Below, piece after piece: positions 11,106-55,740 of a stretch of DNA of 64,000 nt; the stretch's first letter is position 1, and the number at the start of each line of letters is the position of its first letter. The stretch is from Mobula hypostoma (Eukaryota), in NCBI RefSeq assembly GCF_963921235.1, contig NC_086097.1, positions 116,314,001 to 116,378,000 of the forward strand, written 5' to 3'. The translations under genes were made by a program, and so were the position numbers. The notes beneath the pieces were generated by a model, which was given only the letters and a program-made list of their open reading frames with translations, ran no database searches and was not told the DNA's origin.

Positions 11106-12016
11106 GTCCTGGCATCCATCATTAAGGACCCCCATCACCCAGAACATGCCTTCTTCTCATTGCTACCATCAGGAAAGAGGTGCAGGAGCTTGAAGGCACA
11201 CACGCAGTGATTCAGGAATAGCTTCTTCCTCTTTGTCATCAGATTTCTGAATTAAAATTGAACCTATGAATGCTACCACACTACTTTATATTCTGTTTAG
11301 CATCACTTATTTATTTTAACCTTATAAACATACATATGGTATATACTTTTTGCTGTAATTTACTATTTTTATTATTATGTATTGCAATGAACTGCAGCCG
11401 CATATCAATAAAATTCACGACATATGCCCGATTCTGATTCTAACTGATAGATGTGTGATATGTGTCTCCTGTAGGAAGCTGGCTTAATAGCGAAAAGCAC
11501 CTGCTATTGTATAATAAGTGGGTGATATGTTCAATACACTGAATGGAAGGACTCATTTTCCCACTGTTGTTTATGGAGTGGGTATCGCTTTTTGATAGGA
11601 TTAAAGAAAATGTTATAATTTATACCTGAGATCCAACTTGTTTAAAGTCAGTTACAGTTCAAAGCCAAATATCATATGTGTCAAAGTTGAAGAGATAATT
11701 TCTTCGGTTTCCTCAAACAGAAATCTTGATGCACAAACAGAGATTCTGGTTTTCCATCATCACCAATATTATCAGTTAAGGTCTTGGATGGGGACACAGT
11801 GGCCCTGATATGATTTAATGACATCCTCATTTATGTAGAAAAGCTTTAAAAGCTGTTCTGTTATCAAGTCTCTGGTACTTTGTTAGACAGAGAAGGTTTC
11901 TTTCTGATGGTACCAATGTTGCTGCCTCTGCAGCCACAGAATATTCCTTCATCATCAAAATAGAATTGTAAATTCCTGTCTTTACTGCACAAATTTTCAT
12001 CCATTCTTTTTATATA

Positions 12017-12393
12017 CAGTCCTGTGCAAAAACTTTGGGCACTCTAGATTTTTTATCTGGTTTCACATGGTATGGCATCCACAGAGCCCTGATCTCAACA
12101 TCACCGAGGCTGAGTAGATTACCTGGAAAGACAGAAGCAAGTGAGACAGTCGAAGTCTGAAGAAGAATCACCAATCCATTTTCTTATAAAACTGCATGAC
12201 AGTGTAACTAAAAGAATTGATGCAGTTTTAACGGCAAAAGGTGGTCACAGTAAATATTGATTTGATTTTGCTTTTTACTGTTTACTGCTCTTTATAGTAC
12301 ATTTTTTTGATATTTAGCAACATTTCATTATTTTGAAAGCATCTTCACTTTACAGAATTTCTTATACGTGTCTAAGACTTTTGCACAGTTCTG
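12017..12393 (+). mobile_element. Internally deleted Tc1 derivative (MITE-like), same family as 2297-8653
   Basis: TA-CAGTCCTGTGCAAAA ... TTTTGCACAGTTCTG-TA. Retains the transposase end (PQSPDLNITEA ... RIDAVLTAKGGHSKY*). Confidence 0.9.
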
Positions 12394-13136
12394 TATGTAG
12401 GCCCAGACTTTACTGAAGAAATCTGTGATTAACTTACATCAGAGACAGGATGATTACATAAGTTGACATTGTAAAGATAGACAAGGCCGTCATAAACACA
12501 GATTAATATTTAATATTGAAACAGATCAAAGGCCTCATGATAATAAAAGTAAACACAGAAAATAAGAACAAGAGATTAAGTAGGTAAAAATATGCGGAGG
12601 ATAATTAAGTTTTAAGCAAAAAGCAAAAAAAATACAGAAACAATGCAAAACATAGAGAGGATAGTAATGGAAAGATAGCAATCTTCTAAATTTTTTGAGT
12701 ATAGTCCAATTTTACATAATCTACCCTTATAATTTATCTTTTTAAATTTAGTATTATTCAAATAGAACTCTCCTCCAAACAACACTGAAAATACTGGAGA
12801 AAGTAAACAGACCAAGAAGGAGAAGGAAGGAAATGGACAGTCAACATTTTGAGTCATCAGGACTGCAAGGGTCTGATAAGGGGTCTCAACTCAAAACATC
12901 TAACAGAGATCTGCTGATGTTCAAGCCACAGTAGACAATAAACAACATTTCCCTGCCAGATGGTTGCCAGGAAGGTATCTGAACTTGGTCAGTCTTTGAG
13001 TGCTGCATTTTGGAAAAACCTACAGGGGCACCAAATATCCGTGGCTGACTTGACTGTTCCTGTGGGTTAGTGAAAAAATAGGTAAAGCCTGATCTTGTGG
13101 AGTAAAAGATTTCATTGACACCACTCCTCCACTCAC

Positions 13137-13411
13137 CTCCTTTGCCCTCAATGCAGCAGTGAGCAGCAAACTGTGAAATTTGCTTATGTTGTGAAATACG
13201 TAAAGCTCCCAATGCTACCAATGTTGACTTTGACTGTGAGGCCAGTGGGGCAACTTGGCGTTTTCTGAACCATAGATTCTGCAGACGTTGTCCTCTAAGA
13301 TGTGTAGGTAAGTAGAAGCCTGAGTGAGTGGGCTTCCTTGTGAGTGAGTAAGTTGTTAGTGCTGAATCCATAAAACCTCCCATGAAATATCTGTGGTAAT
13401 TGAAAGCCATC
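13137..13411 (-). pseudogene. Candidate pseudo-exon downstream of the TM3-like segment
   Basis: Acceptor TTCTTTTTTCTGAGTAGAACAG and donor GGAG/GTGAGT, followed by a 77-nt intron-like stretch ending TTTTTTCACTAACCCACAG. Non-repeat sequence; no recognisable motif in the translation. Confidence 0.35.
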
Positions 13412-13589
13412 CTGTTCTACTCAGAAAAAAGAATATTAGATGTTGTATGTCAGTTTTGATGTCAAAAAAGTGTTTGGAGGTGTGAGGGTGAGTTGTGTTT
13501 CAGTGTGTAGGGTGGTGAGCAGCAGGTTGGGTATGAGACGCTGGTTAAGTGCTATTAACTCTTTAAATAACATTTTCCACCATCCAGAG

Positions 13590-14271
13590 ACCTGACAATT
13601 CTTCCTCATTAGACAGAAATTCACTCGCATTTCTTCCATTTAGTCACTGTATTTAGTGTTTGTAGCACATGTCCCTTCTACATTGGAGAAACCAAATGAA
13701 GACTAGAGTGATTGCTTTATAGAGCACCTACATATATTCTGTCCACAAGAACAACTCTGAGCTCCCTATTATACGCTACATTAAATTGACAGCCCACCCC
13801 CATTCTGATCTGTCTGTCTATGGCCTCTCACAATGTTAGAAACAGGCCCTATGCAGACTTGAAGATGTGAGCCTCTTTTTTTTTGTCTGGGTATAGGGCC
13901 GCTTTCTGGATTCAATAGATAGTTCTTCAACTTATGTAATTCTTTCTTTGTCTGTATCAGAACTGGCTAATCCTGTCATAAATAATCTATCTGTGATACT
14001 TACTCAGTTTTTGTCTTTTCCATTAGTATCGCCCAAATTGCTCAGTATGTCCCAGAGCCCTGCTGTTAAAAAAAATTACCTTCCAATTGCCCTATTAATC
14101 CATTTGACCTGGTCTCACCTATTCAGAGATATTCCCTTTGTCCTATCCATCCGTCCTCCCAGCTTCTCTACAACTTAAAAGTCCCATTTTTATCTCGCAT
14201 TCTGCTTCCAATAAAGAGCCTCAGACTTCAGAGCTTTGCTTCCATTTCAACGCATGCTACCTAACCTACTG
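13590..14271 (+). mobile_element. Old Penelope-like element (GIY-YIG endonuclease C-terminus and 3' region)
   Basis: TTC TAC ATT GGA GAA ACC AAA TGA AGA CTA = FYIGETK*RL near 13676-13705, then HSDLSVYGL, and a pyrimidine-rich 3' region. Confidence 0.7.
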
Positions 14272-14945
14272 AGTCATGGTCATGGAAAGGTAAAAGCCCT
14301 TCTCCCCATCTAGTCCATGCCAAACCATTTAAAATGCCTACTCCCACCTGAACTGTAACCAAAGCCCTCCATACCCCTACTATCAATGTACCTATCTAAA
14401 CTTCTTTTAAGCATTGAAATCGAGCTCGCATGTACCATTTGCACCGGTAGCTCGATCCACATTCTCATAACCCTCTGATTGAGGAAGTATCCCCTCATGT
14501 TCCCCTCAATCTTTTCACCTTCCACTCTTGTTGGGCCTCTGGTTGAAGTCCCATCCAACTTCAGTGCAAAAAGTCTGCTTGCATTTACCCTACCTCTCCC
14601 CTTCATAATATTGTGTACCTCTATCAAATCACCTCTCAATCTTCCATGTTCCATGGAATAAAGTCCTAATCTATTCAATATTTCCTTATAACTCAGGTAC
14701 TCCAGTCCTGGCATCCTCCTTGTAACTTTTTTCTGTACTCTTTCAACCTTATTAACGTTTGTACATTTTTCCTGACCAAAACTGCACACAATACTCCAAA
14801 TCAGGCCTCACCAATGTCTTACATAACTTCAACATAGCATGCCATTTCTTGCACTCAGTACTTTGATTTATGAAGGCCAATGTGCCAAAAGCTTTCTTTA
14901 TGACCCTATCTACCTGTGATGCCACTTTAAAGGAGCTATGCACCT
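14272..14945 (-). mobile_element. CR1 LINE 3' fragment
   Basis: ORFs 14752-14943 (VRPDLEYCVQFW) and 14310-14789 (LNRLGLYSME..LRGDLIEV). Confidence 0.9.
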
Positions 14946-15429
14946 GTGTTCTCAGAGTTGCAGTAATTTCAGATTCTTTCTTAATACCATCTTTTATTTC
15001 CCTTGTATCTCCGTATCACCATCCATTCCATCATCTAGTCTCACCTGTTTCTCATCCTATCCTTGGCCATCCGATTTATGCTTTTCTACCCATGCCCCAA
15101 TCCTACCAACCATCCACCCCCTGACCTACACAGACACACACTTTTCTTGGCACCTTTCCAGTGCTTTCGTTCTCATATATGCAGATTACAAAAGGGTTAA
15201 AAGACAAACTTCAGAATACATGATTTATTAAAATCTGATTCGTCATGAATTTAGGTCATTAAGTTAATTCAATTTATGTATATCATAATTAAGATGATCT
15301 TAATTAATTAGAATGAAAGGGATAGGTTTAAAGATAAATTCTTCTGAATATCATAAAATTTACATATCCCATATTTAAATAATATAGAGAATGTGGGAAG
15401 TAATGCTAATATATTAATAATTTCTAGTT

Positions 15430-17600: not shown

Positions 17601-18189
17601 TTAGGTTCCTTCTTCTGGCCAGGGTCTGATCTTCCTTTGAACAGATAAGTTGTCAGAGTATTTGAGGTGAGGGTGAGGAGCTACTTTGTAAGTATATGGA
17701 TGTTGGTATAAACCAGTGGTTCCCGAACTTTCTCTTGGCTTCCAGACCACATCCTCAGTGTCTCCCCCTTTTATTCCAACCATTATGTAAAAACTATAAA
17801 GAATTTTGATTTACGAAGCACAGTGAAAGAAAGTAAGAACTGCAAATTGAAAGCCATACAAATAATTTTGCAAAAAAATTCAAATCTATTTAAAGCAACA
17901 AATAAAATTATTTCTTTATTTAATTACAGTAAAACAATTTTCATCAACAATTTTAAAGTATACATTAGTAGTCCAACTTCATTGCTTTTTCACTTTTCTG
18001 GTTCTACCTGGAAATCTGTTGTTCCTCTGCACCTGGGTTCAATCGTTTGTCAGCTCACACCATGCCACTAGAAGGCCACGACGTAAATGGACCCAGCTTC
18101 AACAGCAGCTTGGACATCAGTTAGCTGGAGGCACGGGTGCCTTCTATTCTCAATGCTTGTCTAGAGGCTATGTTCCAAGTTTCCCGAGG

Positions 18190-18887: not shown

Positions 18888-18995
18888 TGTGACTCTGCCT
18901 GAAGAAACACAAAGTGGGACAGTAATATCTTGGTAAGGTTGTGGGCCAAAGAAATGCAGTAAAAACCATTCAAAACAGCAGATTCCAAACGTTAC

Positions 18996-19210
18996 CCCAT
19001 TGAACACCATACCCTAATCCACAGAAAATGGTGTCACCGTGTGATTAGAATAGGGGAATCATACTAGCTAACACTGTACTACAGTAGTGAAAGGGAATGT
19101 TATGAGGGCCAGGCCTGGAAATAATACAATTTCTTCTATCCAGATTTTTCATGATATTCTCGCAAGTGTCACATTGCTTTTCAACAACTGTAACACGTTT
19201 CGAGCAAAGT
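18996..19210 (-). pseudogene. Pseudo-exon, PKD1-like TM3 region
   Basis: Acceptor TTAACCCACCGTTCTCTTAG. One frame reads FARNVLQLLKSNVTLARIS*KIWIEEIVLFPGLALITFPFTTVVQC*LV*FPYSNHTVTP, cf. recalled PKD1 LSVDTVAVGLVSSVVVYPVYLAILFLFRMSRSKV. Confidence 0.5.
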
Positions 19211-20110: not shown

Positions 20111-20269
20111 ATATATTTACAAACTAGCCACTATTGTATGTTTTGGAAGTCTGTGGACAAGAGCCTAGTTACACTTTTTGGTAGTTATAGCTTTAATGCA
20201 TCTGAATTTCAGTATGTTTTTCATATACCATTTATAAATTTGTAGAAGACACTACTGTTGTTCTTTAAT

Positions 20270-23495: not shown

Positions 23496-25171
23496 TTTAT
23501 TCCTTCATTACAAAATGCTATTTGAATTATTTTAAAATGTTTTTGATTAGTAGAGACATTTAACAAAAGCTATTGACAGCAGCAGACTGTCTGAAGACTA
23601 TTACAACAAGGCCTCAAGATTCCCCACCGCAGTCCATTCTGCATTATACATTCAAATCATGTTGGTGCATATTTAACCTGAATCAGGTTAGTGCAAGCAC
23701 TATGATTGTGAGTCAGAGCTAAATCCAGTTCAAAAACTGAACGTTGCCTTGTAATAAATAAATAAAACTGAATGTATTAAAACAGGCAAGCTGGGAGAAA
23801 GATGTTCACATCTCACAAAGGCTTGAATTTACGTAACAAGGAGGGAGAAATGTTTTAATGAAATACAGTGGAGGTGGCTTAATACTCTCCAGTAGGCTAA
23901 TCATGATGCTCATTAACGTCTTTGAGTAACAGCCATCAGGGATAATATGGAATACATGTTTTGTTTTGTTACTAGATTAACACAAAAAAAACTGTATCTT
24001 TGATCCAACCCAATTATACTAACCATTATCTGTCCCTATCCCTCCTGAGTTTCTCCAGCATTTATGTGCTGCTCCAGATTTCCAGCATCTGCAGAATCTC
24101 TTGTGGCTCCTCCAAGGTCAGTTTACCTTTCCTGATATCTGATGCTAAAATTGAATGCCATGATCCAAATACAGTTGAACCAGCTTTACCCCTAAATAAT
24201 CCAAGTTCATGAGGTAAATAATATTCCATCTAAAGTCACAGAGGTGTAGCATAGGGAAACAGAGTAATTAGTTCTAACATACACTGTAATAGATGCCCTG
24301 CATTTAAATAGAAAACCGTCTACGCTTAGGAAAGTTCAATACTCTGTGAAGATTTCTTCACATCCATGTAGGAAATTTCTTGGTGTTATAACATATGCCA
24401 ACAAATATCCCAGACAAATGTAAGGAAGAACTGCTAGCTAATTTGGGCAAAATTATCTGAAATGTAAGATTGTACAAACTGGGAACACTAGAAGAAAATG
24501 ATCCTTTTTTTTTCAATATCAATGTTGTTAATCTTAATCAACATGCCCTATTTCCCCACCCTCTTCAAAGACAGGACCTCAGCCCCCATGAAGGTGCCAC
24601 AGTTCACTACCTCGTTACTGTTGCAGTCATGAAATAGCAGTCCACAATGGCCACTGGAGTGCAGGTATTGTCGTATATGTGTCTCACGCTCCTCTCCGCC
24701 CAACAATACATACCAATCTGCTGTATTTAAAGGAGGCGGCAAAAGACCAGGCATTTATTCCCCTGGAATTGTATCTGAAGGAGTCATGGGTAGGAGAAGG
24801 TTTAACGAGTGAATTGATGTGCCATGGAGTGAGCAGACCCTTTGTAAAGTAGAAATGGGAGAACAAAGGGAATGATTTTGATTTATTCCTTCATTACATA
24901 TTTAATGCAATTTGAATTTTTTTTAAATGTCTTTGATTAATCAAGACATTTTAAAAAAGCTATTGACAGCGGCAAATTGTCTGAAGACTATAACAACAAG
25001 GCCTCAAGATTCACCACCGCAGCCCATTCTGCATTATACATTCAAATCACGTTGGTGCAAATTGTACCTGAATCAGGTTAGTGCAAGCACTATGATTGTG
25101 AGTCAGAGCTGAAACCAGTTCATAAAATGAATGTTGCCTTGTAATAAATAAATAAAACTGGAAGTTTTAAA
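23496..25171 (+). repeat. ~285-bp direct duplication (23496-23781 and 24882-25171)
   Basis: Colinear blocks such as ACAACAAGGCCTCAAGATT and CCTGAATCAGGTTAGTGCAAGCACTATGATTGTGAGTCAGAGCT; roughly 85-90% identical by eye. Confidence 0.9.
24714..24839 (-). pseudogene. Pseudo-exon, PKD1-like pre-TM2/TM2 region
   Basis: Acceptor TTCTCCCATTTCTACTTTACAAAG and donor TTG/GTATGT. Shifting frames give HQFTR*, LLLPMT and GINAWSF, cf. recalled PKD1 SRFTRIQRATCC..LGANAVWY. Confidence 0.5.
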
Positions 25172-28720: not shown

Positions 28721-28795
28721 TTGACTAGAAATGGGATTTCACCCTTTTTTGTTGCAGTGGCTCTCAATCAGGAGATGTACTTGGGGAAAACTTAC

Positions 28796-28950
28796 TCTTA
28801 AAAATTCATTTGTGTGTTTTCCCACTTCGATGTTTGAAAACATAACCCTGTGCTTCTGGATGGCTGCATAGATCACAACAACCATGTCCGTGTTGCTAGA
28901 AGTCACAGAACCCAGGTGAACCTGAGTCATTATGAAGCACTATCGTAATC
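28796..28950 (-). pseudogene. Pseudo-exon, PLAT-domain-like
   Basis: Acceptor CTCTGATTTCTGTCAG and donor AGA/GTAAGT. One frame reads ITIVLHNDSGSPGFCDF*QH..DL, cf. recalled PKD1 [25 protein letters not shown]. Confidence 0.45.
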
Positions 28951-31780: not shown

Positions 31781-34341
31781 AGTTGTTTTGTGGCTGGTTG
31801 TAAGGAGACAGATCTCAAGATTGTATAATGTATACATACTTTGAAAATAAATGTACTTTGAACTTTAAATAATCCAAAAATGAAATATTGTTGATGTTGA
31901 CAATCTGAAACATAAAAGAATTGCTGGAAATAATGAAGCAGCGTCTGAGTGCAAGGCATAGTTTAAGTTTTAGCTCAATATCCTATAACGAACCTTCAAT
32001 TTTGTTCATTCCTCCTAGCCTAACTTTCTTGCAGTCATATATTTAGCCCTTAACTTTTTCCATTTTGATTGAATTGAATCACTGAAATTCTCTTCACAGA
32101 TGGTACCTGATTTCTGTGTATTTTCAGCTATTTGCTTTCCTAAGTTGTAGTTTACTTTAATGATTCAATGCTCTGCTTTCCATCCTTTCACAGTATTATT
32201 TTTCTGTCTCATATCTTTCTTTGCCAATGGTAATTCCTGGTATTTTCTCCGTTACCTTCTTGAGGGCGGCATGGTAGCATAGTTGTCTACAGTGCCAGCT
32301 GTAAGATTGGTATTTGTTTCCTTTCACTGTCTATAGGGAGTCTGTACATTCTCCCTGAGACTGCACAGGACCCCGGTTTCCCCTCACATTCCAGACGTGC
32401 AGATAAGGTTTACTGTGATGTGGACATGCTATGTTGGCATTGGAAGGGTAACAACACTTGCAATTCCCACTGCTTTGAGTTAATTTGATGCATGTTTCAA
32501 TGTACATGTGACAAATGAAGCTAATCTTTAAAGAACATTTAATCTTTGAACTCAGTCATTCTTCCAACTGTCTGATCTCTCGCCTGGAGAAGCTACATCT
32601 GCCCTTGCAGATAATGACTGCAATTTGTTCACATGTGCTCATCATTTTTTTCTGAATGTGACTTCTTAGAAAATGCTTACATTGCAGTTTTTTAGGTTTA
32701 ATATGTGTGAGTGGGTGATAAATTTATCCACAGTCACTTGTGATAAGTACATATGGGACTATTAGCCACTGTTTGTATTCCAAAGCACATTCGACCAAAG
32801 TCAATGGAAGCAAATGTTGGTTAGCTCCAATAAATAAGCGACTATCCTCTTCAGTGACTAATACTGAGCTGGTCTATAAAATGACCAATTGTTTTCCACT
32901 TAACACATATCTTCATATTTTAAACTTAATCAGCATTGTGCTTGATCTTCATGTGATTGTGAATTAGAAGGTATTCTTTTTTCCCTAACCTGTTCTGCAT
33001 GTATTTGTTTGCAAAGCATAGATTGAGGCTTAATTTGTTTTGAACTAATGCAATTTGAAGATCAAATGGCAGAGGGACATATAGCACCTCGGACAGGAAG
33101 GTTTTTGGCTGTTTCATGACATGATTTATGGCTCTTCTATGATTGAACTGTTTACTTATGATATCACCTCATGTCAATAGGAGTTTGGTGACATCACAGT
33201 CTGGAACGGAGGAGTCATTGCGTAAGATCAGAAAAAGCTCTATCATGGGAACTAGCCTCTTCACCATCGAGGACATTTTCAAAAGATGATGCCTCAAAAA
33301 GGCAGCATCCATCATGCATGATATGCTCTCTTTTTATTACTACCATCAGTGAGAAGGTACAGGAGCCTGGAGATACACGCTAAACACTTTAGGAGCAGTT
33401 TCTTCCCCTCCACCATCAGATTTCAAAACAGATAATGAACCCCTGCTTGAAAACTACCTTATTATTTTTTCCTATCTTTTTGCACTACTTATTTATTGTT
33501 ATATGCATATTTCTTATTATAATTTATAGTTTTAACATAATGCTGCTGAAAAACAACACATTTCAGAACTTTATTTATTTAGAGATATATTGGGATTGAG
33601 TTTTATTTGAGCCAATAAAGACGTATAAGCAGAGTGGCCATTTTTGGAGTGGGGCTGTGTTAGATTGGTCCGGCTTTGGCTCAGGAGGCTTAGGCAAGAA
33701 CAGGTTTAAGCAAGCATAAATGCAGACTCTAAGTAAGTTTCCAGTAAGTGTTTTTTCTCTCTGTTAGTACAGAGCTGGTGTGCTAAGGATGGGTCTGGAG
33801 TTAATGGTATGTTCCTTGTGTAAGATACAGGAACTTTAGGAGACCTGCAGTCTCCGTGATAACTACGACTGCGTGCTCCTTAGAAATTGTGTTAAGGAAC
33901 TGGAGCTGCAGCTCAATGACCTTCAGCTCATATGGAAGAAGGAGGAAGTGATAGATAGAGTCTACAGTCACCACTAAACTGCAGGAGACTGGTACCTGTG
34001 TGACTGTCAGGATAGGGAAAGGGAATAGCCCGCCAGAGCAGAGTACCCCTGTGGCTGTTCCAATCAATAATAAGTATACTGCTGGTGGCAACAACGGTTT
34101 AACATGTGGCTAAGGGGTTGTTGCAGGAGCGAGGGCTTCAGACTTTTGGATCATTGGGCTCTTTTCCAGGGAAAGTAAGAACTGTACAGAAGGGATGATT
34201 TGCATCTGAACTGGAGGGGGACTAATAACCTAGTGGAAAGGTTTGGTAGTGCTGCATGGGCCGTTAGGGAACCAGAGCACCAGCACAAATAATGGCGTAT
34301 GGTGCAGAAACGTAAGAGGATTCTCATTCTGAAATGTCTAA

Positions 34342-35034
34342 AGATTAGATTAGATTAGATTATGAGGACACGCAGTCCTCTTTTATTGTCATTTAGTAAT
34401 GCATGCATTAAGAAATAATACAATGTTCCTCCAGAAAGATATCACAGAAACGCACGACAAACCAAGACTAAAAAAACTGACAAAAAACACATTATTAAAA
34501 GATATAGTTACAACAGTGCAAAGCAATACTGCAATTTGATAAGAACAGACCACGGGCACAGTAAAAAAAAGTCTCAAAGTCTCTCGAAAGTCCCATCATC
34601 TCACACAGACGGTAGAAGGAAGAGAAACTCTCTTCCTGCCATGAGCTTCCAGCGCCGCAAACTTGCTGATGCAGCACCCTGGAAACACCCGACCACAGCT
34701 GACTCTTGAGTCCGTCCAGAAACTTTGAACCTCCGACCAGCCGTCCGACACTGTGCACCAAGCACCATCTCTGCCGAGTGCTTCAACCCCGGCCCCGGCA
34801 ACAGGCAATAGGCAAAGCCGAGGATTTGGGGCCTTCCCCTCCGGAGATTCTCGATCGCACAGTAGCAGCGGCAGCAAAGCAGGCATTTCAGAAGTTTCTC
34901 CAGATATTCCTCTGTGCTTTTCATGTCCGTCTCCATCAAATCAGGATTGTGCACGCTACCTATTTAACAAATACAATATCATTTCGGAGTGGCTGCCCAG
35001 GCTGCATCGTGCCGCCATCTTCTCCTCCCCTCCC
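34342..35034 (-). mobile_element. ~695-bp non-autonomous retroposon, copy 2 (uninterrupted)
   Basis: AAGATGGCGGC at 35021-35011, 3' hairpin GAGGAC-TGCGT-GTCCTC and (TCTAA)n tail. Colinear with 3170-3601 + 7713-7975. Confidence 0.85.
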
Positions 35035-36707: not shown

Positions 36708-37528
36708 CATATTGACTGGGACTCAATACTGTAAAAGGGCTGGATGGGAGAGTTTGCCAAACGTGTTCAGGGAAGTTCCCTTACTCAGTACGTTGAAATC
36801 CCAGTGAGAGAGAATGCAATACTAGATCTCCAATTTGCAAATGAAACAAGACAGGTGACAGAAGTTTGTGTAGAGGAACACTTTATATCCACTGATCACA
36901 ATACCATTAGTTTCAATGTAATTATGGAAAAGGGACAGGTCTGGCTCATGGGGTGAGATTCTAAATTGGAGAAAGGTCAACTTTGATGGTATTAGAAAAG
37001 TTCTGGCAGGTGTGAAATTTTGAGAGTACATAGTTTGTATGTTCCTGTCAACATAAAAGGCAAGAAAAACATATTTATAGAACTTTCTTATTTTTTGTGT
37101 GCTAGAAGAGGCGATGTGGGGGTCGATGTGCCTGTTCTGTGTTCATTCATTTTTTTGTGCAGAGCGAAGGGATTGGAGGTTGATGATCGTGCTGCCGTTC
37201 TTTTCTTTCTTGGTTCTATGGCCATCTGGAGAAGAAGAATTTTGAGTTGTATACTTTGATAATAAATGAACCTTTGAACACTTGATACATCAATGATATT
37301 AAACCTGATTCTGACTTGGAGAGAAATTAAAATAATTAAACATCTTAAGTGAAAGTTAGCCGGGGATTGAAGCAAGATCTCAGACCAATTTCTATAAAAG
37401 AAAGCAAAGAATAATTTAAAATACAAATAACTAAAAACACCATACAATACTAGAACATCAGTAACCTGCGGGGCCAGATTTATAGGAGATGAATTTGCAG
37501 TGTGATTGCTTGATTTCTTTTCCTGTAC

Positions 37529-37691
37529 CTTTCAGCTGAAAGCTAATCTGCTCAATTTCTTGCTTGGAGTGTAAACTAATCATGATAAAGTGAGAGCTAC
37601 CCAGCATCGGGGACATTGGTGAATGATGGGTCCAATATTGCATCTGCTTAACCTCAAAGACTGAAGGGCTGACAAATAAACTCTGCCACGG
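37529..37691 (-). pseudogene. Pseudo-exon, PKD1-like post-GPS stalk and TM1 region
   Basis: Acceptor TTTACCTTTTTCTCAG and donor AAAG/GTACAG. 163 nt open: PWQSLFVSPSVF...HFIMISLHSKQEIEQIS, cf. recalled PKD1 GASLFVPPSHVRF...YMVMAAILHKLDQLDAS. Confidence 0.55.
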
Positions 37692-37974: not shown

Positions 37975-39810
37975 TAGGGTAGATGAAAGTGTGTCTGAGG
38001 AGATGGAACAGAAGGGAGAGATCTGATTTCCTGGACTATTGGGAACTCTTCTGGGGCAAAGGGGACCTGGACATGAAGGACAAGTTGCATCTCATTTGGA
38101 GGGAGACCAATACAGGTTTAGGGAAAAGGCGGGGGGGTGGTTAAACTAGTCAAGGGGGTTTAAACTAGTGTGGCAAGGGGCGAGGCCCAAAGTAAGCACG
38201 TGGCACATGAGAAAGTTAAAGCAAATCTAAAACCAAAAGGCACAGCCTCAGAATCGAAGGAATATCTCATTAGAACAGACGTTCCCAACCTGCAATCCAC
38301 AGACCTCTTGGTTAATGGTCAGGGTCCATGGCATAAAAAAAAGGTTGGGAACCCCTACTTTAGAAAGAGATGAGGAGGAACTTCTTTAGTAAGAGGTTGT
38401 AAACCTGAGGAGTTCATTGCCAGACGGCTATGGCGGCAAGTTATTGGGTATACTTAAAGCAGAAGTTGATAGCTTATGAAAAGTTACAGGAAGAAGGCTG
38501 AAGTACGAGGTTGAGAGAGATCATTAATCAGCCATGATGGAAAGGAGGAGTAGACTAAATGGGCTGAATGGACAAATTCTGCTCCTATGTCTTAATGCTT
38601 TAGGGTTAAATAGAGAAATTGAAGTGAGCAAGTTCAGTAGTCAGGACCAGGCAGGGTCAGGACAGGGAGCAAGGAAGGGTTGATAGGCTAACCTGCATTT
38701 ACTTTAAAGTAAGAAGTCTAACAGGTGAGGCAGGTGAGGGTAGGGCACAGCGATGCATGTGATTTTGATATCATAACTATTATGGAAACATGTGGAAGGA
38801 TGAGTAAGACGGGCAGCTCAGGTTTCTGGAGTACATTTTGATTAGGGAGAACAGCACAGTAGTAGTCAGAGAAAATATTCCTGGGAGAAATGGCTGGTGA
38901 GGTCATACAAGTTGTGTTGTGACTGTGATCTAAGTCACCAGAGGGATATGAACCTGGTGATATTGAAGTCTAATTCATCATGACAACCAATGTTCTTCTG
39001 GAGACATTCTCTGTAGAGTCTATAAAGTCTCTCAAACACAAATTGTATCACATTTTTATACCCTTAAGATCAAAGGTAACAGTAGGTGAAACAATACACT
39101 TTCGATAGTTACAATGATGCAGGGGAAATGGCTGAAGTAACTGTAGAGAAACGCCTTGGGACATAAACTCCATTATTTTTAGAATAGTTACAGAAAAATA
39201 AGGACAAGTCGACAAGCTGGAGTCCTAACTTGAGGCAAAGATAATTTTGATGGTGATAGGAATATGCAAAGGTTAATTGGAGGAATCTATTAGCAGTTAA
39301 AGGGATGCCTGATGAGTGGGAGATAGGGGAAGTTTGGTGCTAACATGTTCCTATTACAGTGAAGGGGAAGACTTCCAGGATGAGAGAACCCTTGGCTAAC
39401 AAAGGATTTTGAGGCTCTTGTCAAGAAAAAGAAACAGGCATATGTAAGGACAGCTGGGAACTAGCAAAAGGGCAACTGGAGAGAGAATAGGACCTCTTTA
39501 AGAATCAGAGTGGATATTTATGTGTTGAGCAAAAGGAAGTGGTTTTGAATGAGTATGTCTCAACTGTATTTACTGTGGAGAATGTCAAGCAAGGTAGAGA
39601 AGAGAAAAATAAAGCCCTGAAACATACAGTATCAATATTATAACAGAAGAGGTGCTGGCACTGTTGAGGCACTTAAAGGTGGACAAATCCTAGACAGGTT
39701 CATAGGTAGCAAGGATTCAGAGGGGTATGGGCCCAGTGCAGTCAAATGGGATTAGCTCGGGATGGGATTATCCTGGGTGGCATAGATTAGTTAGCTGATG
39801 AGTCTGTTCC
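37975..39810 (+). mobile_element. Cluster of degenerate CR1 fragments
   Basis: Esterase remnant near 38030-38110; CR1 3' end 38360-38600; EPWLTK..IGPL..VFTVE..LKVDKS near 39380-39690. Confidence 0.7.
38276..38357. mobile_element. 82-bp hAT-type MITE
   Basis: TIRs CAGACGTTCCCAACCT / AGGTTGGGAACCCCTA. The 8-bp flanks CATTAGAA and CTTTAGAA match at 7 of 8. Confidence 0.75.
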
Positions 39811-40649
39811 GTGCATAAAAGTATAATCACTGATCCATTACTTTTTTTCACAGCAAATACATTTTAATCCTCTCGAATTGTAGAGAATATCATGGTAATA
39901 TCCAACATATTGCCAGAACATCAACTCGAGCTCAAATTGTCACTTCGTATACTTCTTGACTACTTTGAAAAGGACAAAAATAATGCACTTGACATAATCA
40001 CACATGAAACATCTACAAGGCCTATTGTGCTTCATTGATTCAGAGACACTAAACTGATTGCCCAAGTGGGTTCACAAAGAGGTTTGACAATGCTTTCAAA
40101 TGGTTGGTATTATACAGCATGTTCGTACATTGTAGGCAGACTGACATACTTATCTGATGTTCTGATAAAGGTGACATCATTACAGATGCAAGTAAATAGG
40201 TAAAAGTATTTCCTGAAAAATTGCTACATTAAATAAAGATGATTCCAAGCATCTTTTTTACATTTAAGGCCAACTTAATTTATAAGCATTCAACTTTCAC
40301 CACTAGAGTACTCAATTATGCTCTGAGTTAGAAATATTAGGTATGTAGAGATTTTACATCGGACATTAAACATCAGGAGTTTCCAGATTTAGTTTACATA
40401 TTTATGATTAAATTGCATCTTTGTTTTATTCTATTGTGCATAATATATTTCAATTAAATATTGCATAGTGATTTAAATAATCATATTTTGCATTTCCAGT
40501 AGACAACAGAAATGTTAATCAAATGCAACATTAATTAAGTTATTTCAGTCTAAATATTAATGCAGTTACGGGGAAAAAGGAAAATATGTTTTATTTATTT
40601 TGCCTCTTCAAGTTATGATTATAGGGCTGAGTATTCCTTTGAACTGCTG

Positions 40650-40920
40650 TCATTTTCAATTTCCAGAGACAAAGGTGAGGAACTAGGAAATTAAGTCTAA
40701 GTGGTGGGATGGGCTGTTTATAATGTAATCCAATCTGAAAAAGTGTCCATTACTGTTCTGCTCTCTGATGTAGCCACTTAGAATTAATATGTGCCTTAAA
40801 TTCATCCTTCTAGAGGTGATTGTTGGATGGATAGATCTGATCACCTGTTTCTCCTCAAAATGTCTTGTGTCATGAGGCAATGACAGTGAAGTGACAAGGC
40901 AGTGAAGGCATTGTAGAATA
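40650..40920 (-). pseudogene. Pseudo-exon, PKD1-like GAIN subdomain B
   Basis: ORF 40683-40925: LVTSLSL..RHFEEKQVIRSIHP..EQNSNGHFFRLDYII, cf. recalled PKD1 KVASMAF..ERLASERAITVKVP..SSNPAAGLHLQLNYTL. The 5' edge abuts a SINE. Confidence 0.5.
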
Positions 40921-43616
40921 TTCAAGATTCAAATTTACTTATCACTTGTGCATTGAAACATACTGTGAGATGCACTAATGCCCAACATACCTGAGGGTAT
41001 TCTGGGGGCAGACCATAAGTGCCATTACACATTCCTGCACCAACATAGCGTGCCCACAATGCTCGGCAAATTCATTTCTCTGAAGAGAAGACAAATGCCT
41101 TCATTAATCAGTTTTAATACTAGTGGGGGTATTCGGCAAAACAGCATAGAATACAACAAAACAGAACACAACAAGCAACAAAATAACAACAGCAAAACAA
41201 GCCTAGTTCCTCCCACACACCCATCCATGCACGTGCTGTTACACAGTTCTTCATCTCCAGGGTACACCATCTTTGATCTCCAGCCTCCAGTGGATTCAAA
41301 CTCAGACTCACAGACATTGGCCTTCAACATGAATTCAGACTCAGACTCACAGACTTTGGACTTCGGCTTTCCAAAAGACTTCACAGATTTGCAGATTACG
41401 GGCTCTGGTTAATGTACTTTTGATTGACCCTCGGGCCTCAATCCTTGGCATCAATATACACCTTGTTTTCTGCATCAAAGAACTAATTGTTAATGTGTGC
41501 CTTAAATCCAATAAAATATTTCACCTGGCATCAAAACAGATTGATGAAGGCATTTGTCTTCTTGACAGTGAAATGCATTTCTCAGTGGGAACTTTCACTT
41601 CCTGATTTATATAAAAGACAGGAGAAAAAAGAGTGTAATAAGTCAGTAACAATAAGTAAAACAAACATGCTTCTAAGATTTCAATGCTCACTCCATGGCA
41701 TTTATAAAAAATTAGGGCTTTACCATAAAGTAATGAATTACAAAACCATAATATAAAAATTATTGTACACTTGAGTTTGGTGCTGCCTAACAGCCTCTTG
41801 CTTGCTGCTGGTTGAGGAAGATATCTGTGTGTGACAATCTCTCTCTCCATCTCTCTCCCTGCTCTCAAAGGATGGTTCCAGCATTTGAATGGTCCCTCTC
41901 TCTCCTAATGCTGAAGTTCTGGGTCTGCTGTTTGCGGGTTGGACTCTGTGGGAGAGGTTCTGGGTCTGCGGTTTGTGGGTTGGACTCTGTAGTTCCCACT
42001 ATGTTTTCTGGTAACTCCTTTTTTTTGTTGCTATTTTGGGGGATTTTGAATCGGGGCGGCCTACAGATAATGAACATTGAGCTGAACTCAATATGCCAGG
42101 ACACTTTGTATTTAATGTTTTACGTTCTGTATTTTTCACTCGTTTCTCTTTTGTTGTCACTTGCACAATTTGTTTTTTTTTCCATGTGGCAGGGGGTTGA
42201 TGTTTTACTTTGACTGAGGCTGTGCACGTGGTGTTTCTTTGCTTCCTGGCTGTCTGTGAAGAAGACAAATCTCAGGGAAGTATGCTACACACACACCTCG
42301 GTAATAAATTTACTTTGAATCTAGAATCTTTTCTCTGTGTTTAATGATTAGGTACCCACTTTAACGAGGTAACCATTGGGATAAGAATTGTTTTGCCCAA
42401 GGCTCTGTTTCCTCCCGTATTCCAAAGACACATGGGTTAGGGTTAGTGAATAGTGTGCTTGCTATAATGGCACCGGAAGCATGGCTCATATCTACGTTAG
42501 ACTGAGGCTGTGACCTACAGCTGGTGGACTTCTGGATCAGCTGCAGTGATGTCTGGCTTTGAACTTCAACTCTGAATGCTGTTTGCTTGCTTTTAGTATT
42601 TGCATGACTTGTTCTTTTCTCTGGGTGTTTTGACATTCTTCTTTTGTTTTGAACGGGCTTCCTTGGGATTTCTTTGTTTCGTACCTGCCTGTAAGGAGAC
42701 AAGTCCCAAGGCCGTATAAAGTATACATACTTTGATAGTAAATATATTTTAAACTTTGAACACTTGCCCAACACAATCTTTGCTGATTTGCTTTGACACA
42801 AGATGATAAATTTCACTGTATGTTTTGATGTATATGTGACAAATAAAGTTAATTCCTTTTATCTTTAAAATCCAGTCACTAAATACATTTAGCTGCTCTG
42901 CTTGTATTTCCAGGCATGTACAGTGATGTTAATCTGCACATGTTACATTAATGTAATTTATAACTTCTTAAAGGTTCTGATACAAGTTGTATTGATACTA
43001 AGTACCAGACCACTTCTTATCTGGAGAGTCAAATCCAGACCTGCACAAGTTCAATGGCTAATGTCAAATGGGCTACTGGCATGGACTTTCTCTGCAGCTG
43101 AGTTGATCTTCAAGATTTATTCACATCCAGCGAACAGTGAAATGGCTCGGGTGCACTGCAATAGATAACAGGGGGATGAGCATGTTGGAGATCTCCTCAG
43201 AGTTGGTACAGAGCTGGAAAATCCCAAGCAACACACACAAAACACTGGAGGAACTCAGCATCTAAGAAAAAGAATGAACAGTCAACATTTCAAGCTGAGG
43301 CCATTTTTATTCTGGCATCTTCCCCCTTCCTTCTCAGTCCTGAAGTGTCTGGACCAAAATATTGATTGTTTACTTTTTTCCATAGGTGCTGTCTGACCTG
43401 CAGAGTTCCCCTAGCATTTTGCAGGTACTGCTTTATAGTAAATACATATCTGTTTACCAGCCCAAGGCAATCCCATAAACTCCAGGTGGAAGCTTGCCAT
43501 TGTACATTTAAGATCAAGAAAGAACTGCTCACAGCTCACGTAAGCACATGAGGTGTGGAAGTAAGACAGTTCATGTGGCACATAGATGCTGAAGCTTGAG
43601 CCTGCAAAGGGCTCAC

Positions 43617-44464
43617 CTCACTCTACGTACACACTGCATGCAGGGTAGACTGCGTGGGATGTTGAGGAGGAGTGAATAAGAAATAGTATAAAAATAAAGG
43701 ATATTTGGATCTGGGAGCATTCATTCCAGTCTGATTGACCCCCCTCTTGACGTCAGCTTGTAATAAAGAGAATACTTCCTCTGAGTGTAAACCCTGGACT
43801 CTTTCCATCAACAAATGTGTTCAACTTTCACCCACAGTATTAGTAAAAACAGATAACCATGCGTTCTCCGAGGATTTAATTAGCAAAGTCTTTTGTTCTG
43901 AGGTACAAGGAAATTAAATTGCTAATGCTTCAGTATTCACATTCACCAACCGCACATCCCCCCATGTATTCAAAAGGTCACTGAAACATCAGATGAGTCT
44001 CCCAGTTCATAGCTTTTCGATGAAGCCTACCAGCCCCAACAAAGAGGAGGTTGGAAAGATATTGTACAAGAATAGACTGCCCAGGGAGTGACAACCCTCA
44101 CTCAATGGACCAAAGTTAAACAAGATGCTGCAAATATCTGCAAGAAAGTATATGGTGACATATAATAAATTTAATATTTGATAATCAACTTACTTTCATT
44201 TTAAACTTGCATGTCCTCACGAGATAAGTTTGAACTCCATGCTCATTTCAGATCTGTTGAGTGTAGATCCCAACAGGAAATGCTTTTCCTTGAGTATTTT
44301 GGTGAGATGCTATTCCTCAGTACAGAGAGATGTACAGTTGAAGTAATTCTATTTGCTAATTGGGATCAGAATTACAGTATTTCACATGCCAGTGCAGTTT
44401 GATGTGTGATCTGGGCTTTCGTACACAGCTTACTACAGCTCTCTGTTGGGAAGTTTCTTGCAGC
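43617..44464 (-). pseudogene. Two phase-compatible pseudo-exons (44464-44194 and 43897-43617), GAIN region
   Basis: Donor GAAA/GTAAGT joined to acceptor TTTCCTTGTACCTCAG gives QV*NE-KQKTLLIKS, cf. recalled PKD1 RVLNE-EPLTLAGE. Later SKYPLF resembles SNPFPF. Confidence 0.45.
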
Positions 44465-44589
44465 CTGTGTTGATATTGGCTCAAAAAGCTCTCCTCTTTA
44501 AAATCTCCATCCCCTCTAAGATCTTCACACTGAGGCAATCCCAGTTAACAGTTAAGAAGCCGAAATCCCCTCCTACTCAATCCCATTGT

Positions 44590-48611: not shown

Positions 48612-48794
48612 TTAGCTGTAAAAAGAACACTTCAGCTGTCTCAGTCATCTTCACAGACATCATTTCATGGCTCATTATTGGCATTCGGATTCAGGAGGAA
48701 ATAATGCTTTTCATGCCAGTCATACTAAATACACTTAATATTAGCATGTTGCTGCATCACTTGTTCCAGATTGGTCAAACGTGTTGAAGTCTTC
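48612..48794 (-). pseudogene. Pseudo-exon, GAIN subdomain A-like
   Basis: AG/GTAAGT bounded. KTSTRLTNLEQVMQQHANIKCI*, cf. recalled PKD1 LRVHTVDDIQQIAAALAQCM. Confidence 0.4.
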
Positions 48795-48929
48795 CTGTTT
48801 GCTTTATTGCAGGAAGTGCAGAGATCTTGGCTTCAGTAATGGCCAAAGGCCAGGTTCCAGAGCACTACAGTGTGGCCAATGTCAGAATCAGGTTTGTTTT
48901 TACTGGAACGTGATGTACCATTGTTTAAA

Positions 48930-50720: not shown

Positions 50721-51020
50721 TCCAGAGATATGCAATCTCGCAAGTATTAATTTCAATAGCAACCAGTCTTCAGATCTGAATACAGATTATAGTTTCAATT
50801 TAAGATGCAGCTCAGTAAAATGGTCTTCCTGAAGCTGCATTTTAGAGTAAATTGCAGACCAGGAAACACCCAATTGACCTGAGATGTCTGCATATGCATG
50901 AATGCAATCAACACCCTATTGACCTAAGATGTCTGCATACGACTCAGAGACAACAGTAATTAACATTCATTTGAGGTGTATTGGTGGGAAGACTGAAGTA
51001 TTTGAAAAATTACATGCAAA

Positions 51021-51280
51021 TGGCGTGTGCCCAAGTGCTAAGGTGTTCGTCTAATGATTTGAAGGTTGCCAGTTCGAGCCTTGGCTGAGTGGTTAAATGA
51101 GCACACATTGCTCTGCGACGACACTGGTGCCAAGCTGTATGGGTCCTAATGCCCTTCCCTTGGACAACATCGGTGGGGAGGGGAGACTGCTAGTCTTCCA
51201 TACAACCTTGTCCAGACCTGCGCCCTGGAAACCTTCCAAGGCGCAAATCCATGGTCTCACAAGACTAACGGATGCCTATA
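51021..51280 (+). mobile_element. tRNA-derived SINE of a second family
   Basis: A-box-like TGCCCAAGTGC and B-box AGTTCGAGCC; the body is unrelated to the V-SINE core. Confidence 0.6.
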
Positions 51281-51810
51281 TACATGCTCAAAAGGAGCAT
51301 AGTGAAGCGTTGTAACTATTGAACTTGTCCTGTTACCTTTGTTCTATAAACACACAAAAATGTGCTCTAATTTTGGGTCGGGGAGCCTCTCTCTCTCTCT
51401 TGCTCTCTCTCACTCACTTTCTCACTCCCTTGAGTGATTCCAGAGGCTGCCAGCTTGTGGGTATCCTGACTAAGGACTTTTCTATCTTCCAGCTGCATCT
51501 CTCCTGTGCCTTCATTCACAGTTACAACATGTACAAGCTGGACCAAAGGGCCTCTTTCCACGTCGTATGGTTCTATGACTGGAAGATTTCCACAATGGGT
51601 CAGTTAAGTTAAATACAATAGGGTGAATTTAAGTCAACTGAATTATTCTGACTAAAGGTATGCTGAATGACAAATTCTGCACAATTTATGACAAATGATA
51701 CATTCAGTATCATGCACAATATTAATCAGTCTGTGAGAATATGATAAGCATACTGAAGAACTAATAGTGGAGAGTAGCAGAGCCCTGTCATATCTCAGGA
51801 AATTAATTAC

Positions 51811-52086
51811 TGTCCATGGCTTGTCACACTTTCCAGGTAGGTAACAACAAAACTAAGTCAGCTGATTGCATCCAATCTGGAGGTCTCTTTAGTGGCTCAA
51901 ATTGCTCTGCCAATGGGTGTGAAGGTGTAAAATTGACTATGACAATCAATTTCCTAACTATCAGGTTATTTCAGCCACCTGGTTATTTTGCTGGCATTCA
52001 TTGGTGTACCAAGCCTATTTGTATTCAGCAATTGACTGATGTACTGTTCAACAATTCTGACAGATTCATCCTTTTTAGGAGGAATT
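51811..52086 (-). pseudogene. Pseudo-exon, end of REJ-like region
   Basis: Acceptor CTCTCTACTCAGTTGTCTCTCAG. TPMNASKITRWLK*...LSFVVTYLE, cf. recalled PKD1 PEPNGSATGLTVWLH...SLALVTVLNE. Four stops in frame. Confidence 0.45.
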
Positions 52087-52444
52087 CTGAGAGACAACTG
52101 AGTAGAGAGTAGAAGTTATACTTTTTGTTGCTCCTATTGGTTTCTCTAGACAGAAGTGTAGCAGTAGGTGCAATACAATTACAGCTCAGGGCATTGGAGC
52201 TCAGTGTTCAATCCCAGCATCCTCTGTAAGAAGTCTCTGTACGCTCTCTTTGTGAAGTGTGTTGCTTTTTTCTGGGTTCTCAAGTTTTCTCCCACAGTCC
52301 AAAGGACTGCATAGGTTAATTGGTCAACGTAAATTGTCCCATGATTAGGTTGGGTTAAATTGAGGTTGCTGGGGGTTGCTGGGTGACGCGGCTCAAACAA
52401 CAGGAAGAACATATTCCACGTTTGTATATCTAAATAATGTAAAT

Positions 52445-52934
52445 TGTCAGGTCGCTGGATCAGGGATCCAATCGCACACCCAGTACTGTGCACACAGTGA
52501 TATTAATAGAGTAACAAATTCCGAGGTGCAAACAAAGCCGGCGTCAAAGTTCAGGCAGAGATCAAAACATCCAGAGAAATTCAAAAACCAGAATTGGGAA
52601 TCAGGCAGAGTCAATATTCAGATAGATAGAGTACAGATACAAATGTTGGAAAGGCTCAGGAAAATTCACTGGCACAACCTGGCAATAAACAGGTGAAAAC
52701 ACAGGACTGAAATACACTGAGCAATAAACAGAGAGGCAGATGATAAGTGGAGCACAATGAGATGCAGATGGCAGCAATACAGGTAATAATGAGAAGCAGA
52801 TGAGAGACGGAGTACTTTTACAGAGGCTGGAGTAGGGCAGGAGTGAGGACAGGAGCACATAGCAATACAAAACCACTGACTCACAGCTAGAGGGAAACAC
52901 ATGAAAAGACAGAGTTCAATTGGGAGTACTGACA
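52445..52934 (-). mobile_element. Solo LTR (490 bp)
   Basis: TGTCAG...CTGACA termini, with GTAAAT on both sides (52439-52444 and 52935-52940). Strand is tentative. Confidence 0.8.
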
Positions 52935-53009
52935 GTAAATAAATAAAGCAAGGAAAACTATCTTTCCTCAGATGTCAATATCAATTGAAAATTCATTGGA
53001 AGACACAGA

Positions 53010-53580
53010 CCAGAGCAACACACACAAAATGCTGGAAGAACTCAGCAGGTCAGGCAGCATCTATGGAAATAAGTAAACAGTCAATGTTTCAGGCACAGAC
53101 CATTCTTCAGGACTGAAATAGAAGGTGGAAGACACTGGAATAAAAAGGTGGGGTAGGGGAAGGATGCTAGCTAGAAAGTGACAGGTGAAGCCAAATGGGT
53201 GGGAAGGTGAAGGGCTGGAGAAGAAGGAATCTGATAGGGGAGGAGAGTGGACCATAGGAGAAAGGGAAGGAGATGGGGATGCAGAGAAGTTTTAGGCAGG
53301 AGAGAAGAGGTAAAAGGCCAGAGTGGGGAAAGAGAGGGGAGATGGAGTGGGGGAGATTTTTTTTTAAACCAAAGGAGAAATTTATATTCATGCCATCAAG
53401 TTGGAGGCTACTCCGACAGAATACAAGATTTGGCTCCTCCACCCTGAGCGTGGCCTCATCTTGGCAAAAGAAGAGGCCATGGACCAACATGTCGGAATGG
53501 GAATGGGAATGAGTATGGGAATTAAAATGTTTGGGCACCGGGAAGTTCAGCTTTAGGCAGATGGAGCACAGCTGCTTCAC
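53010..53580 (-). mobile_element. Penelope-like element: GIY-YIG C-terminus, 3' region and hammerhead
   Basis: ORF 53167-53580 FPVPKHFNSH..SDMLVHGL..EATLRVEE..LVFC..LQLDGMNINFS. Minus strand CAGTC-CTGAAGA-ATGGTCTGTGCCT-GAAA-CA-TT-GACTG. Confidence 0.88.
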
Positions 53581-54480
53581 TTGGTCACTTTACCTTCACA
53601 GATACCCGTGGCAACGACTTCTACAGATTCACAACCCTCTGATTAAAGAAATTCTTTCTCATCTCTGTTCTAAAGGATTGTCCTTCTATTCTGAAGCTGC
53701 ACCCTCACATTGATGACATGGTGAGATGGTGGGAGGCCATTTCTAGTGGCTGGAGAGGCTGCAAATAGGGGTATAATCCCAGAATAAGGCCAAGCACATT
53801 TCCAACTACGATGGAACGTTTATTTATTCCGAGGGTTCTGATATCCCTGAATTAAAATTATAATTGCTCAGACTGGAAAAGAGGAAAGGATCAAGTTTAT
53901 TCAGCATGTACAGTACAATTATATATGTATTGTTCAGTTACTGTGGTGTGTTAGATTAATAAGCAACGAGAAACATTAACATTCAACACTATATCAAATA
54001 AAGTATCATAAAAAAATAAAGTTATACATACAAATATGGAATAAAATGTACGTATATACACAAATACCACCATGTACTTTCAAGGTAAACAGCATTATAA
54101 AAAGTAGTTTGAAGTATTTACAGGACAGTGCAGTGACTGAGGCAATAGATAGAGAGGAGAAGGGAGATAACTAGAATAGTTAATCTGATTGATTGCATGG
54201 TGGAAGAAACTTTTAAGATGGTGTGAAGTTTTTTTTGTCTGAATAGTCCTCTACTGCTTTCCAGGAAGGAGCTTTTGGGAAAGGCAGTATGCTGGGCGGG
54301 TAGTGTCAGCTATAATTTTATCTGCCTACTTCTTTGTTCTGAACTCAAAGTGAAGGGTGAATAAAATAGCGTGTTAAAAAAAGAGCAGCTGGCACAAATT
54401 AGTAGGCCTGAACATTGGTTCATTTACCACTCTTGGGCTTCAATGCTTTAAACCAGCCTGAAGTCTGCCCCAGTGCTTAC

Positions 54481-54642
54481 TCTTCACTAAACCATCATTA
54501 GTAGTATCAGTAACTAGAAACTGAAACTTGTAGACATTAACATTTTAAGTGGAATTTACCAGAAAAATCACAAAGAAAGAATTCACTTTTTATTCACTTC
54601 ATTGAGAATTTCATAAGCAAAGCTGTTGGCTTAGGTGTCACC
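54481..54642 (-). pseudogene. Pseudo-exon, REJ-domain-like
   Basis: AAAG/ and /GTAAGC borders. VTPKPTALLMKFSMK*, then (shifted) NVYKFQFLV, cf. recalled PKD1 LFPLGAVHALTTKVHFEC..PLVYALLL. Confidence 0.45.
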
Positions 54643-55740
54643 CTTTATAAATCAACTGATTTACTAAACTGCGAATGTCGTGATGCTTTGTTCCAAAATC
54701 TATTCTCAATTGAAAAAAAATCAAAGAATAACAACAGACTCAGGAAATCTGCAATTAAAAAAAAACGGAATGTTCTGGAAAAACTATCAAACAGCATCAG
54801 AAAGAGAAGCAGATTCAATGTTTCAGATTTCAGACCCTTCATCAGAAGTGGAAGAAGGGAAGACAAAAGTTAACTTTCAGTAGCAAAGCAAGCGGAGTAG
54901 GGACAAGGAAATAAATCATTTCCCTAATAGGGTGAGACCAAATGTACTATTGTGGCAGGTAGAATCAGATTTTGCTGCTTTGTCTGTGTGGTCTGTTGCT
55001 GACAACAAGCCTGTGGGGCATAACCAGCAGGCCAGACAATACTAATAGAAAGAGAAAATAAAAAGAGCAAAAACCACACATGGATGATTGGCAGAAATGG
55101 CTGGTTTTGATATAAGCAGAACAAAAGAAAGACTGAGTCTGGTATGCTGCAATGTGCCAAGATGGAAGATGAATTGCTCTTCCTCAGACTTCCTTTGAAT
55201 TTCACTCAAAGCTCACAGAAAGATGGATCAGAATGGGAGGGGAATGGGAAAATAAAATGATAGGCAATCAGAAGCACAAGGTCACTTCTGAACAGAGTTG
55301 CTTTTCCAAGTCTTCACCAAAATGTTTGCTTCCTTCGCAGCACAGGCCATATTGTGAAACGTAAAGAGTACAGTGGGCTGAAAGAAGTGCAACTGAATTG
55401 TGGCCTCACCTAGAAGAACTGTTTGAATTCTAGAAAGGGAGGAGGTACAAGGAAAGGTGCTGAGTCTCTTACATCTTCTCTCCATTTGTGACATTAGGCC
55501 ACATCTGTTTGACCCGTTATAGGAAGGATGTACGAGAAAACAAGGCAGACTACTCATACTGATACTGATCCTGGCTCCAGTGAAAACACAAAATCATTGA
55601 AATATTTGGAACAGGAATGTTATTCATGCCCAGGATGGCTGTATGCTGTTTAATAGAGCAGAGACAGAATAAGACAGCTGCTCAAAGTTCCATCTCCCTA
55701 AGGTGCTATTAAGTCACCATGCAAGATGTTGCTCTATCTG

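What the first reader, a model, noticed from the sequence alone, without database searches (positions are those of the whole stretch)
11626..55740. Hidden fossil of a polycystin-1 (PKD1-like) gene threaded through the repeats on the minus strand
Seen: after mentally masking repeats, the leftover islands mostly have polypyrimidine-AG and GT(A/G)AG-type borders on the minus strand. Reading downstream they give: 54.6k TALLMKF/VYKF (REJ); 52.0k NASKITRWL..LSFVVTYLE; 48.7k LTNLEQVMQ; 44.2k/43.9k QV*NE-KQKTLL; 40.8k LVTSLSL..HFFRLDYI (GAIN); 37.6k SLFVSPS..IMISLH (post-GPS, TM1); 28.9k LHNDSGSPG..F*QH (PLAT); 24.8k QFTR..GINAW (TM2); 19.1k EEIV..ALITFP (TM3). Weaker candidates lie at ~55560-55740, ~39860-39962 and ~33000-33180. 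Knowledge: this is the domain order of the polycystin-1 family. Inference: each match is weak alone, but the order and common strand are persuasive. The many stops and frameshifts imply an old unitary pseudogene, possibly a PKD1 paralogue lost in this lineage, which standard gene finders would miss. The comparator sequence was recalled from memory.
Basis: partly seen in the sequence, partly recalled or inferred. Interest (0 to 1): 0.8.

Follow-up and report, generated by a model that had tools for sequence, protein, structure and literature searches.

The report
Unproven dead polycystin gene in ray
Short scraps of freely mutating, single-copy DNA between transposon debris in what is likely a ray genome are possibly the wreck of pkd1b, a sister of the kidney-disease gene PKD1, but no search told the resemblance apart from chance.

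Summary
The quoted peptide strings all exist on the minus strand in the stated order, in low-copy DNA that changes as fast as its flanks in related species, so no working gene lies here. The polycystin reading is unproven. Pfam, PDB (holds human PKD1), a 1.8-billion-protein search and frameshift-aware chain tests with four real family proteins found no clear signal. Order is weak evidence: chains of about 20 similarly weak hits occur on any strand. Splice signals show no strand bias. These tests lose power beyond about 20% decay, and no shark or chimaera PKD1/pkd1b protein was obtainable. In favour: three islands fit human PKD1 exon lengths (195/196, 178/171, 100/101 nt), and the 24.8k island carries two TM2 motifs plus a donor at the expected spacing (post hoc). 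Odds: about 45% PKD1-type relic, 40% chance, 13% other dead gene. The scan made similar unconfirmed polycystin-relic claims at two other places in this genome and once in another.

The parts
55560..55740 (-).
   Evidence: no polycystin family hit
54481..54748 (-). Island B: AG...GTAAG-bounded 268 nt holding TALLMKF and VYKF in different frames; REJ reading rests on recall
51831..51998 (-). Island C: NASKITRWL...LSFVVTYLE in one frame with stops; REJ/GAIN reading rests on recall
48752..48778 (-). Island D: LTNLEQVMQ; GTAAG donor 159 nt downstream
43880..44209 (-). Island E: QV*NE before a GTAAG donor (44193) and an acceptor at 43897 before QKTLL
40686..40928 (-). Island F: 81 stop-free codons with LVTSLSL...HFFRLDYI; no database relative found
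   Evidence: no indel against organism B
39860..39962 (-). Island G, weak GPS-like candidate; 4 substitutions in about 100 nt against organism B
37466..37691 (-). Island H: SLFVSPS; alternative exon 37660-37466 (195 nt; human PKD1 exon 26 is 196 nt) with C..C.V and a closing G before GT
   Evidence: PDB searches negative; about 7% divergence in relatives
32990..33167 (-). Island I: 178 nt AG...GT (human exon 27 is 171 nt); candidate first PLAT exon, by eye only
28796..28950 (-). Island J: LHNDSGSPG..F*QH before a GTAAG donor; 126 nt from the inner acceptor (human exon 28 is 144 nt)
24714..24839 (-). Island K: FTR, then G.NA 52 nt on (human 54), then a GTATGT donor 100 nt after the F (human 101, boundary recalled); best single piece of support
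   Evidence: PDB negative; identical in run X1
19065..19210 (-). Island L: EEIV..ALITFP, TM3-like by eye; 146 nt does not fit the human exon (127 nt, partly recalled)
13137..13294 (-).
   Evidence: searches negative; 6-8% divergence in organism D
11626..11852 (-). Island N: LLKLFY after an AG and RKPKKL, faintly like the exon after TM5
   Evidence: PDB negative

Best explanation
These islands are single-copy DNA that changes as fast as its flanks in related species, and they are possibly the remains of a long-dead PKD1-type polycystin gene, most likely pkd1b. How it would have come about (inferred): an intron-rich gene on the minus strand lost function long before the sampled species split, its introns filled with LINE, Tc1 and SINE copies, and its exons decayed by a quarter or more of their bases. 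It makes no product; nothing here works like a polycystin today. Shown: the strings, their order, the lack of constraint, the breaks being real DNA. Not shown: homology to PKD1, and which paralogue.
For: Strings and order are real. Against human PKD1 as printed (read by eye): SLFV.PS 6 of 7 at 37.68k; FTR and G.NA at 24.8k; RKR.LP.W at 13.27k and RK.K.L at 11.72k continue the order downstream. The latter motifs are in PKD1 and not in the PKD1L2-type comparators P0002-P0005. Lengths fit human exons for 3 of 9 islands measured: H 195/196, I 178/171, K 100/101 (boundaries c.9201, 9397, 9568/9, 9712, 10050; c.9923 recalled). The K pattern (FTR + G.NA + donor) occurs once on minus, never on plus, and in 0 of 150 block shuffles (defined after seeing it). 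Minus ranked first of 14 sequences in 2 of 8 masked chain settings and led at 2 of 4 join costs unmasked. pkd1b exists in elephant shark and gar and was lost in medaka and mammals (PMC5318412); a catshark survey names pkd1, pkd1L1, pkdrej, pkd1L2, pkd1L4.1/2 but not pkd1b (PMC11979771 main text).
Against: No REJ, GPS, PLAT or channel hit in 29 + 5 minus-strand island frames. No PKD1 hit in PDB for 6 of 6 island queries. 0 hits at E<=0.001 among 1.84 billion proteins for one frame holding F and H. tblastn with 4 family proteins: best E 0.64, none at a claimed place. GPS-TM3 chain score on minus 112 against a null of 110+-12; minus was lowest of four with the only vertebrate comparator; the best codon-model hit lies on the plus strand. 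Chance gives 192-262 hits of 6-of-8 with a frameshift and chains of 18-23 on every strand and control; at that rate about two such hits are expected in the M/N region. Hand scores of the best motifs (BLOSUM62 recalled): 28, 18, 17, below the chance best of about 46. No strand bias of splice signals.
Confidence: 0.45

Rival explanations
1. Ordinary old intergenic DNA between transposon copies; the motifs are chance look-alikes picked in order from a long remembered protein.
Against: The blind tests cannot see a relic at 30% decay; the joint pattern at K and the length fits at H and I are not easily dismissed, though post hoc.
Confidence: 0.4
2. A dead multi-exon gene, but another polycystin (PKD1L1, L2, L3, L4) or an unrelated gene.
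For: Several islands have exon-like borders; the TM3-like string has I.FP as in fish PKD1L2 P0004; SPG at 28.9k recalls PKD1L1 (recalled).
Against: Fish PKD1L2 scores lowest on the minus strand; a PKD1L2-type relic decayed 20% or less would have been seen.
Confidence: 0.13
3. An intact gene whose stops are assembly errors.
For: None found.
Against: Run X1 contigs match islands K, M, N with 0 differences (may be the assembly's own source); independent species show 0 gaps over H (organisms C, G) and over F and G (organism B), and 4-8% divergence in islands like that of flanks.
Confidence: 0.02

Closest known systems
pkd1b of elephant shark, gar and teleosts (PMC5318412)
   Same: Expected order REJ, PLAT, membrane part; intron-rich gene of tens of kb (52.6 kb in elephant shark); lost more than once.
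   Different: No pkd1b sequence could be fetched, so homology is untested; here no open frame, no constraint, no PKD repeats or channel domain seen.
Human polycystin-1 (PKD1; PDB 6A70 chain B)
   Same: Short motifs from after the GPS site to after TM5 in the same order, by eye; three exon lengths fit.
   Different: phmmer finds none of 6 island queries; several islands are the wrong length; two strings cross human intron positions.
PKD1L2/REJ-type proteins P0002-P0005, P0011 (coral, cusk-eel, amphioxus)
   Same: Same family architecture used as yardstick.
   Different: No match above background.
Unitary pseudogenes (e.g. GULO, UOX; recalled)
   Same: Intron-bearing single-copy remnant evolving without constraint.
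   Different: Those are tied to their parent by significant alignment and synteny; both are missing here.

Membership tests
Polycystin-1 family | REJ domain (PF02010) | tested here: inconclusive
   No hit; no signal with coral REJ proteins; low power on short broken pieces.
Polycystin-1 family | GAIN/GPS motif (PF01825) | tested here: inconclusive
   No hit at F, G, H; no C.C.HL motif next to SLFVSPS.
Polycystin-1 family | PLAT domain after TM1 (PF01477) | tested here: inconclusive
   No hit at I or J; coral profile 0.5 bits at J; hhalign 0.6%.
Polycystin-1 family | 11-TM body with polycystin channel domain (PF08016/PF20519) | tested here: inconclusive
   TM2-TM5 only by eye; no channel-domain match on either strand; it could lie beyond the window's left end.
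PKD1/pkd1b subfamily | Intron positions shared with PKD1 | tested here: inconclusive
   3 of 9 island lengths fit; pkd1b's own intron map was not available.
PKD1/pkd1b subfamily | PKD (Ig-like) repeats upstream of REJ | not tested
   DNA beyond 56 kb is mostly LINE and LTR debris; not scanned for PF00801.
pkd1b orthologue | Synteny and tree placement | not testable with these tools
Unitary pseudogene | Real disablements and no purifying selection | tested here: met
   islands 4-8% divergent, flanks 3-12%; no frame-changing gaps over H, F, G in the contigs listed.
Unitary pseudogene | Significant homology to a parent gene, no working copy elsewhere | not testable with these tools

The most novel reading that the evidence does not exclude
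This is the fossil of pkd1b, killed in the stem of sharks and rays or of rays and still faintly readable after hundreds of millions of years, one of several polycystin-1-like genes that rays have let decay; rays would then be natural knockouts for this spinal-cord-expressed polycystin.
Probability: 0.3. Interest if true: 0.5.

Novelty: new member of a known kind. Interest (0 to 1): 0.22.

Why it matters
If confirmed it would add an independent loss of pkd1b to those known in medaka and the mammal line (PMC5318412) and date it from the decay, and it would show that very old gene ruins stay legible in slowly evolving cartilaginous-fish genomes. I found no paper on pkd1b loss in sharks or rays (searches). 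As it stands it is an unverified candidate for an ordinary kind of object, and a warning that ordered weak motif matches arise by chance.

Tried and rejected
No RNA holder was listed for 36.7-41 kb; the possibly-RNA runs X21 and X9 gave no long piece or splice joint on any island between 11.4 and 29.2 kb; this says nothing about expression. Word-index search with island F: 22 candidates, none scored, and only proteins up to 2000 aa were searched. Attempts to reach vertebrate PKD1/pkd1b: a PLAT pattern gave 3 coral-like metagenome loci, 4 bacterial PLAT loci and nothing in viral contigs; long-protein search gave 1 candidate, none scored; the last search gave 4 PKD1L2/REJ-type proteins. ESM Atlas: no usable hit for H or the 176-codon frame. 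Codon-level decay model: its reversed and shuffled controls score above both real strands, so only minus versus plus is usable, and that gap is small. An LSRTG string at 13.42k was set aside as chance. The catshark supplement, which holds the Pkd1 trees, could not be read and may show whether sharks keep pkd1b; the zebrafish paper's supplement, in the parts read, gave no usable sequences. No look-alike window in other genomes.

Full report
Setting. The window is about 41% GC and mostly transposon debris: RT and endonuclease frames of LINEs and a Tc1 transposase, with 17 kb matching itself. The repeat types and earlier scan notes point to a ray (inferred; the notes are unchecked).

Observation. 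Every quoted string is there, on the minus strand, in the stated order.

No working gene. Contigs of five related organisms cover the islands. Divergence in islands (H 27/393, 47/617, 25/357; F 30/666; J 17/326; M 56/689 and 35/556) is like that of flanks (50/1279, 34/522, 47/500, 33/414, 29/463) (only the listed pieces could be counted, the tables were cut). Organisms C and G show 0 gaps over H, organism B 0 gaps over 39060-41100, and run X1 is identical over K, M and N. The breaks are real DNA and the islands are unconstrained.

Blind homology tests. Pfam found no polycystin domain in 34 minus-strand island frames and nothing above cut-off in 36 plus-strand frames. PDB, which holds human PKD1 from the GPS site on, gave no polycystin hit for 6 of 6 island queries. 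phmmer over 1.84 billion proteins with one read-through frame holding F and H gave 0 hits. I obtained real family proteins by way of three coral-like loci: two coral REJ proteins, a fish PKD1L2 and an amphioxus protein. tblastn gave best E 0.64. Frameshift-aware chain scores were alike on minus, plus and reversed DNA (644, 626, 608, 562 at join cost 25). On 14.9 kb of hand-picked low-copy islands minus ranked first of 14 sequences in 2 of 8 settings and last of four with the fish protein in both settings. A codon-level model put its best hit on the plus strand.

Power. Real coral exons planted in window DNA and scored with the fish protein gave chains of 445, 286, 172, 124 and 119 at 0, 10, 20, 30 and 40% decay (6 replicates each), against a null of 110+-12 (12 shuffles); the real minus strand gave 112. 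So a young relic is excluded, an old one or one far from these comparators is not.

The order argument. In 34 kb of non-self-repeat DNA a family protein finds 192-262 matches of 6 in 8 residues with one frameshift, in colinear chains of 18-23, on all four strands and controls; 6-of-7 ungapped matches chain up to 4 deep. Nine weak ordered matches are therefore unremarkable. Hand scores of the best strings against the human chain printed are 28, 18 and 17 (matrix values recalled), under the chance best of about 46.

Intron positions. Human PKD1 has boundaries at c.9201, 9397, 9568/9569, 9712 and 10050 (passages of PMC7224062, PMC5770025, PMC3206831); c.9923 and the later ones are recalled. A different parse fits better: H 195 nt (exon 26, 196), I 178 nt (exon 27, 171), and at K the distance from FTR to a GTATGT donor is 100 nt (101), with G.NA at 52 nt (54). 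That joint K pattern occurs once on minus, never on plus and in 0 of 150 shuffles, but I defined it after seeing it. J, L, M, N and B do not fit. Two further islands downstream (13.27k, 11.72k) carry strings like PKD1 TM4 and the next exon; by the rate about two such hits are expected there by chance.

Literature. PMC5318412 (passages; supplement searched and part 2 of 2 read): pkd1b is present in elephant shark and gar, absent in medaka, mouse and human, truncated in stickleback, and expressed in zebrafish spinal cord. PMC11979771 (passages; supplement unreadable) lists catshark Pkd1-like genes without pkd1b. PMC12344233 (passages) says nothing on this gene in rays. Searches found no report of pkd1b loss in sharks or rays.

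Verdict. Dead, neutral DNA is shown. Its origin from a PKD1-type gene, best guess pkd1b, is about as likely as chance pattern matching (0.45 against 0.40). I do not file it as a family member. One alignment with chimaera or gar pkd1b would decide it.

Noticed in passing
window 12886-13416 (-): A 176-codon stop-free frame in single-copy DNA with an acceptor at its start and a strong GTGAG donor at 13136; no Pfam or Atlas relative, 6-8% divergence with gaps in organism D.
   Followed up: partly
window 23496-23781 and 24882-25171: Two 290-nt direct copies, 89% alike, of a LINE-like end; the second abuts island K and may have cut off its 5' part.
   Followed up: partly
window 3173-3604, 7713-7974, 34342-35029: Young Tc1/mariner-type copies (88-92% alike; transposase HTH hit).
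   Followed up: no
window 58530-59621 (-) and 4641-5711 (-): LINE reverse-transcriptase frames of 363 and 356 codons without stops.
   Followed up: no
window 60000-61600 (-): LTR-retrotransposon-like gag/pol debris (weak DUF4939 hit), left as is.
   Followed up: no
L001-L003: Coral-like PKD1L2/REJ genes in a metagenome; L003 encodes PLAT to TM6 in one 481-codon frame and matches human PKD1 at E 5e-46.
   Followed up: partly
L004-L007: Small stand-alone PLAT-domain proteins in actinobacteria and a Longimicrobiales MAG that share the WHDN.G..P.W motif of polycystin PLAT domains.
   Followed up: no
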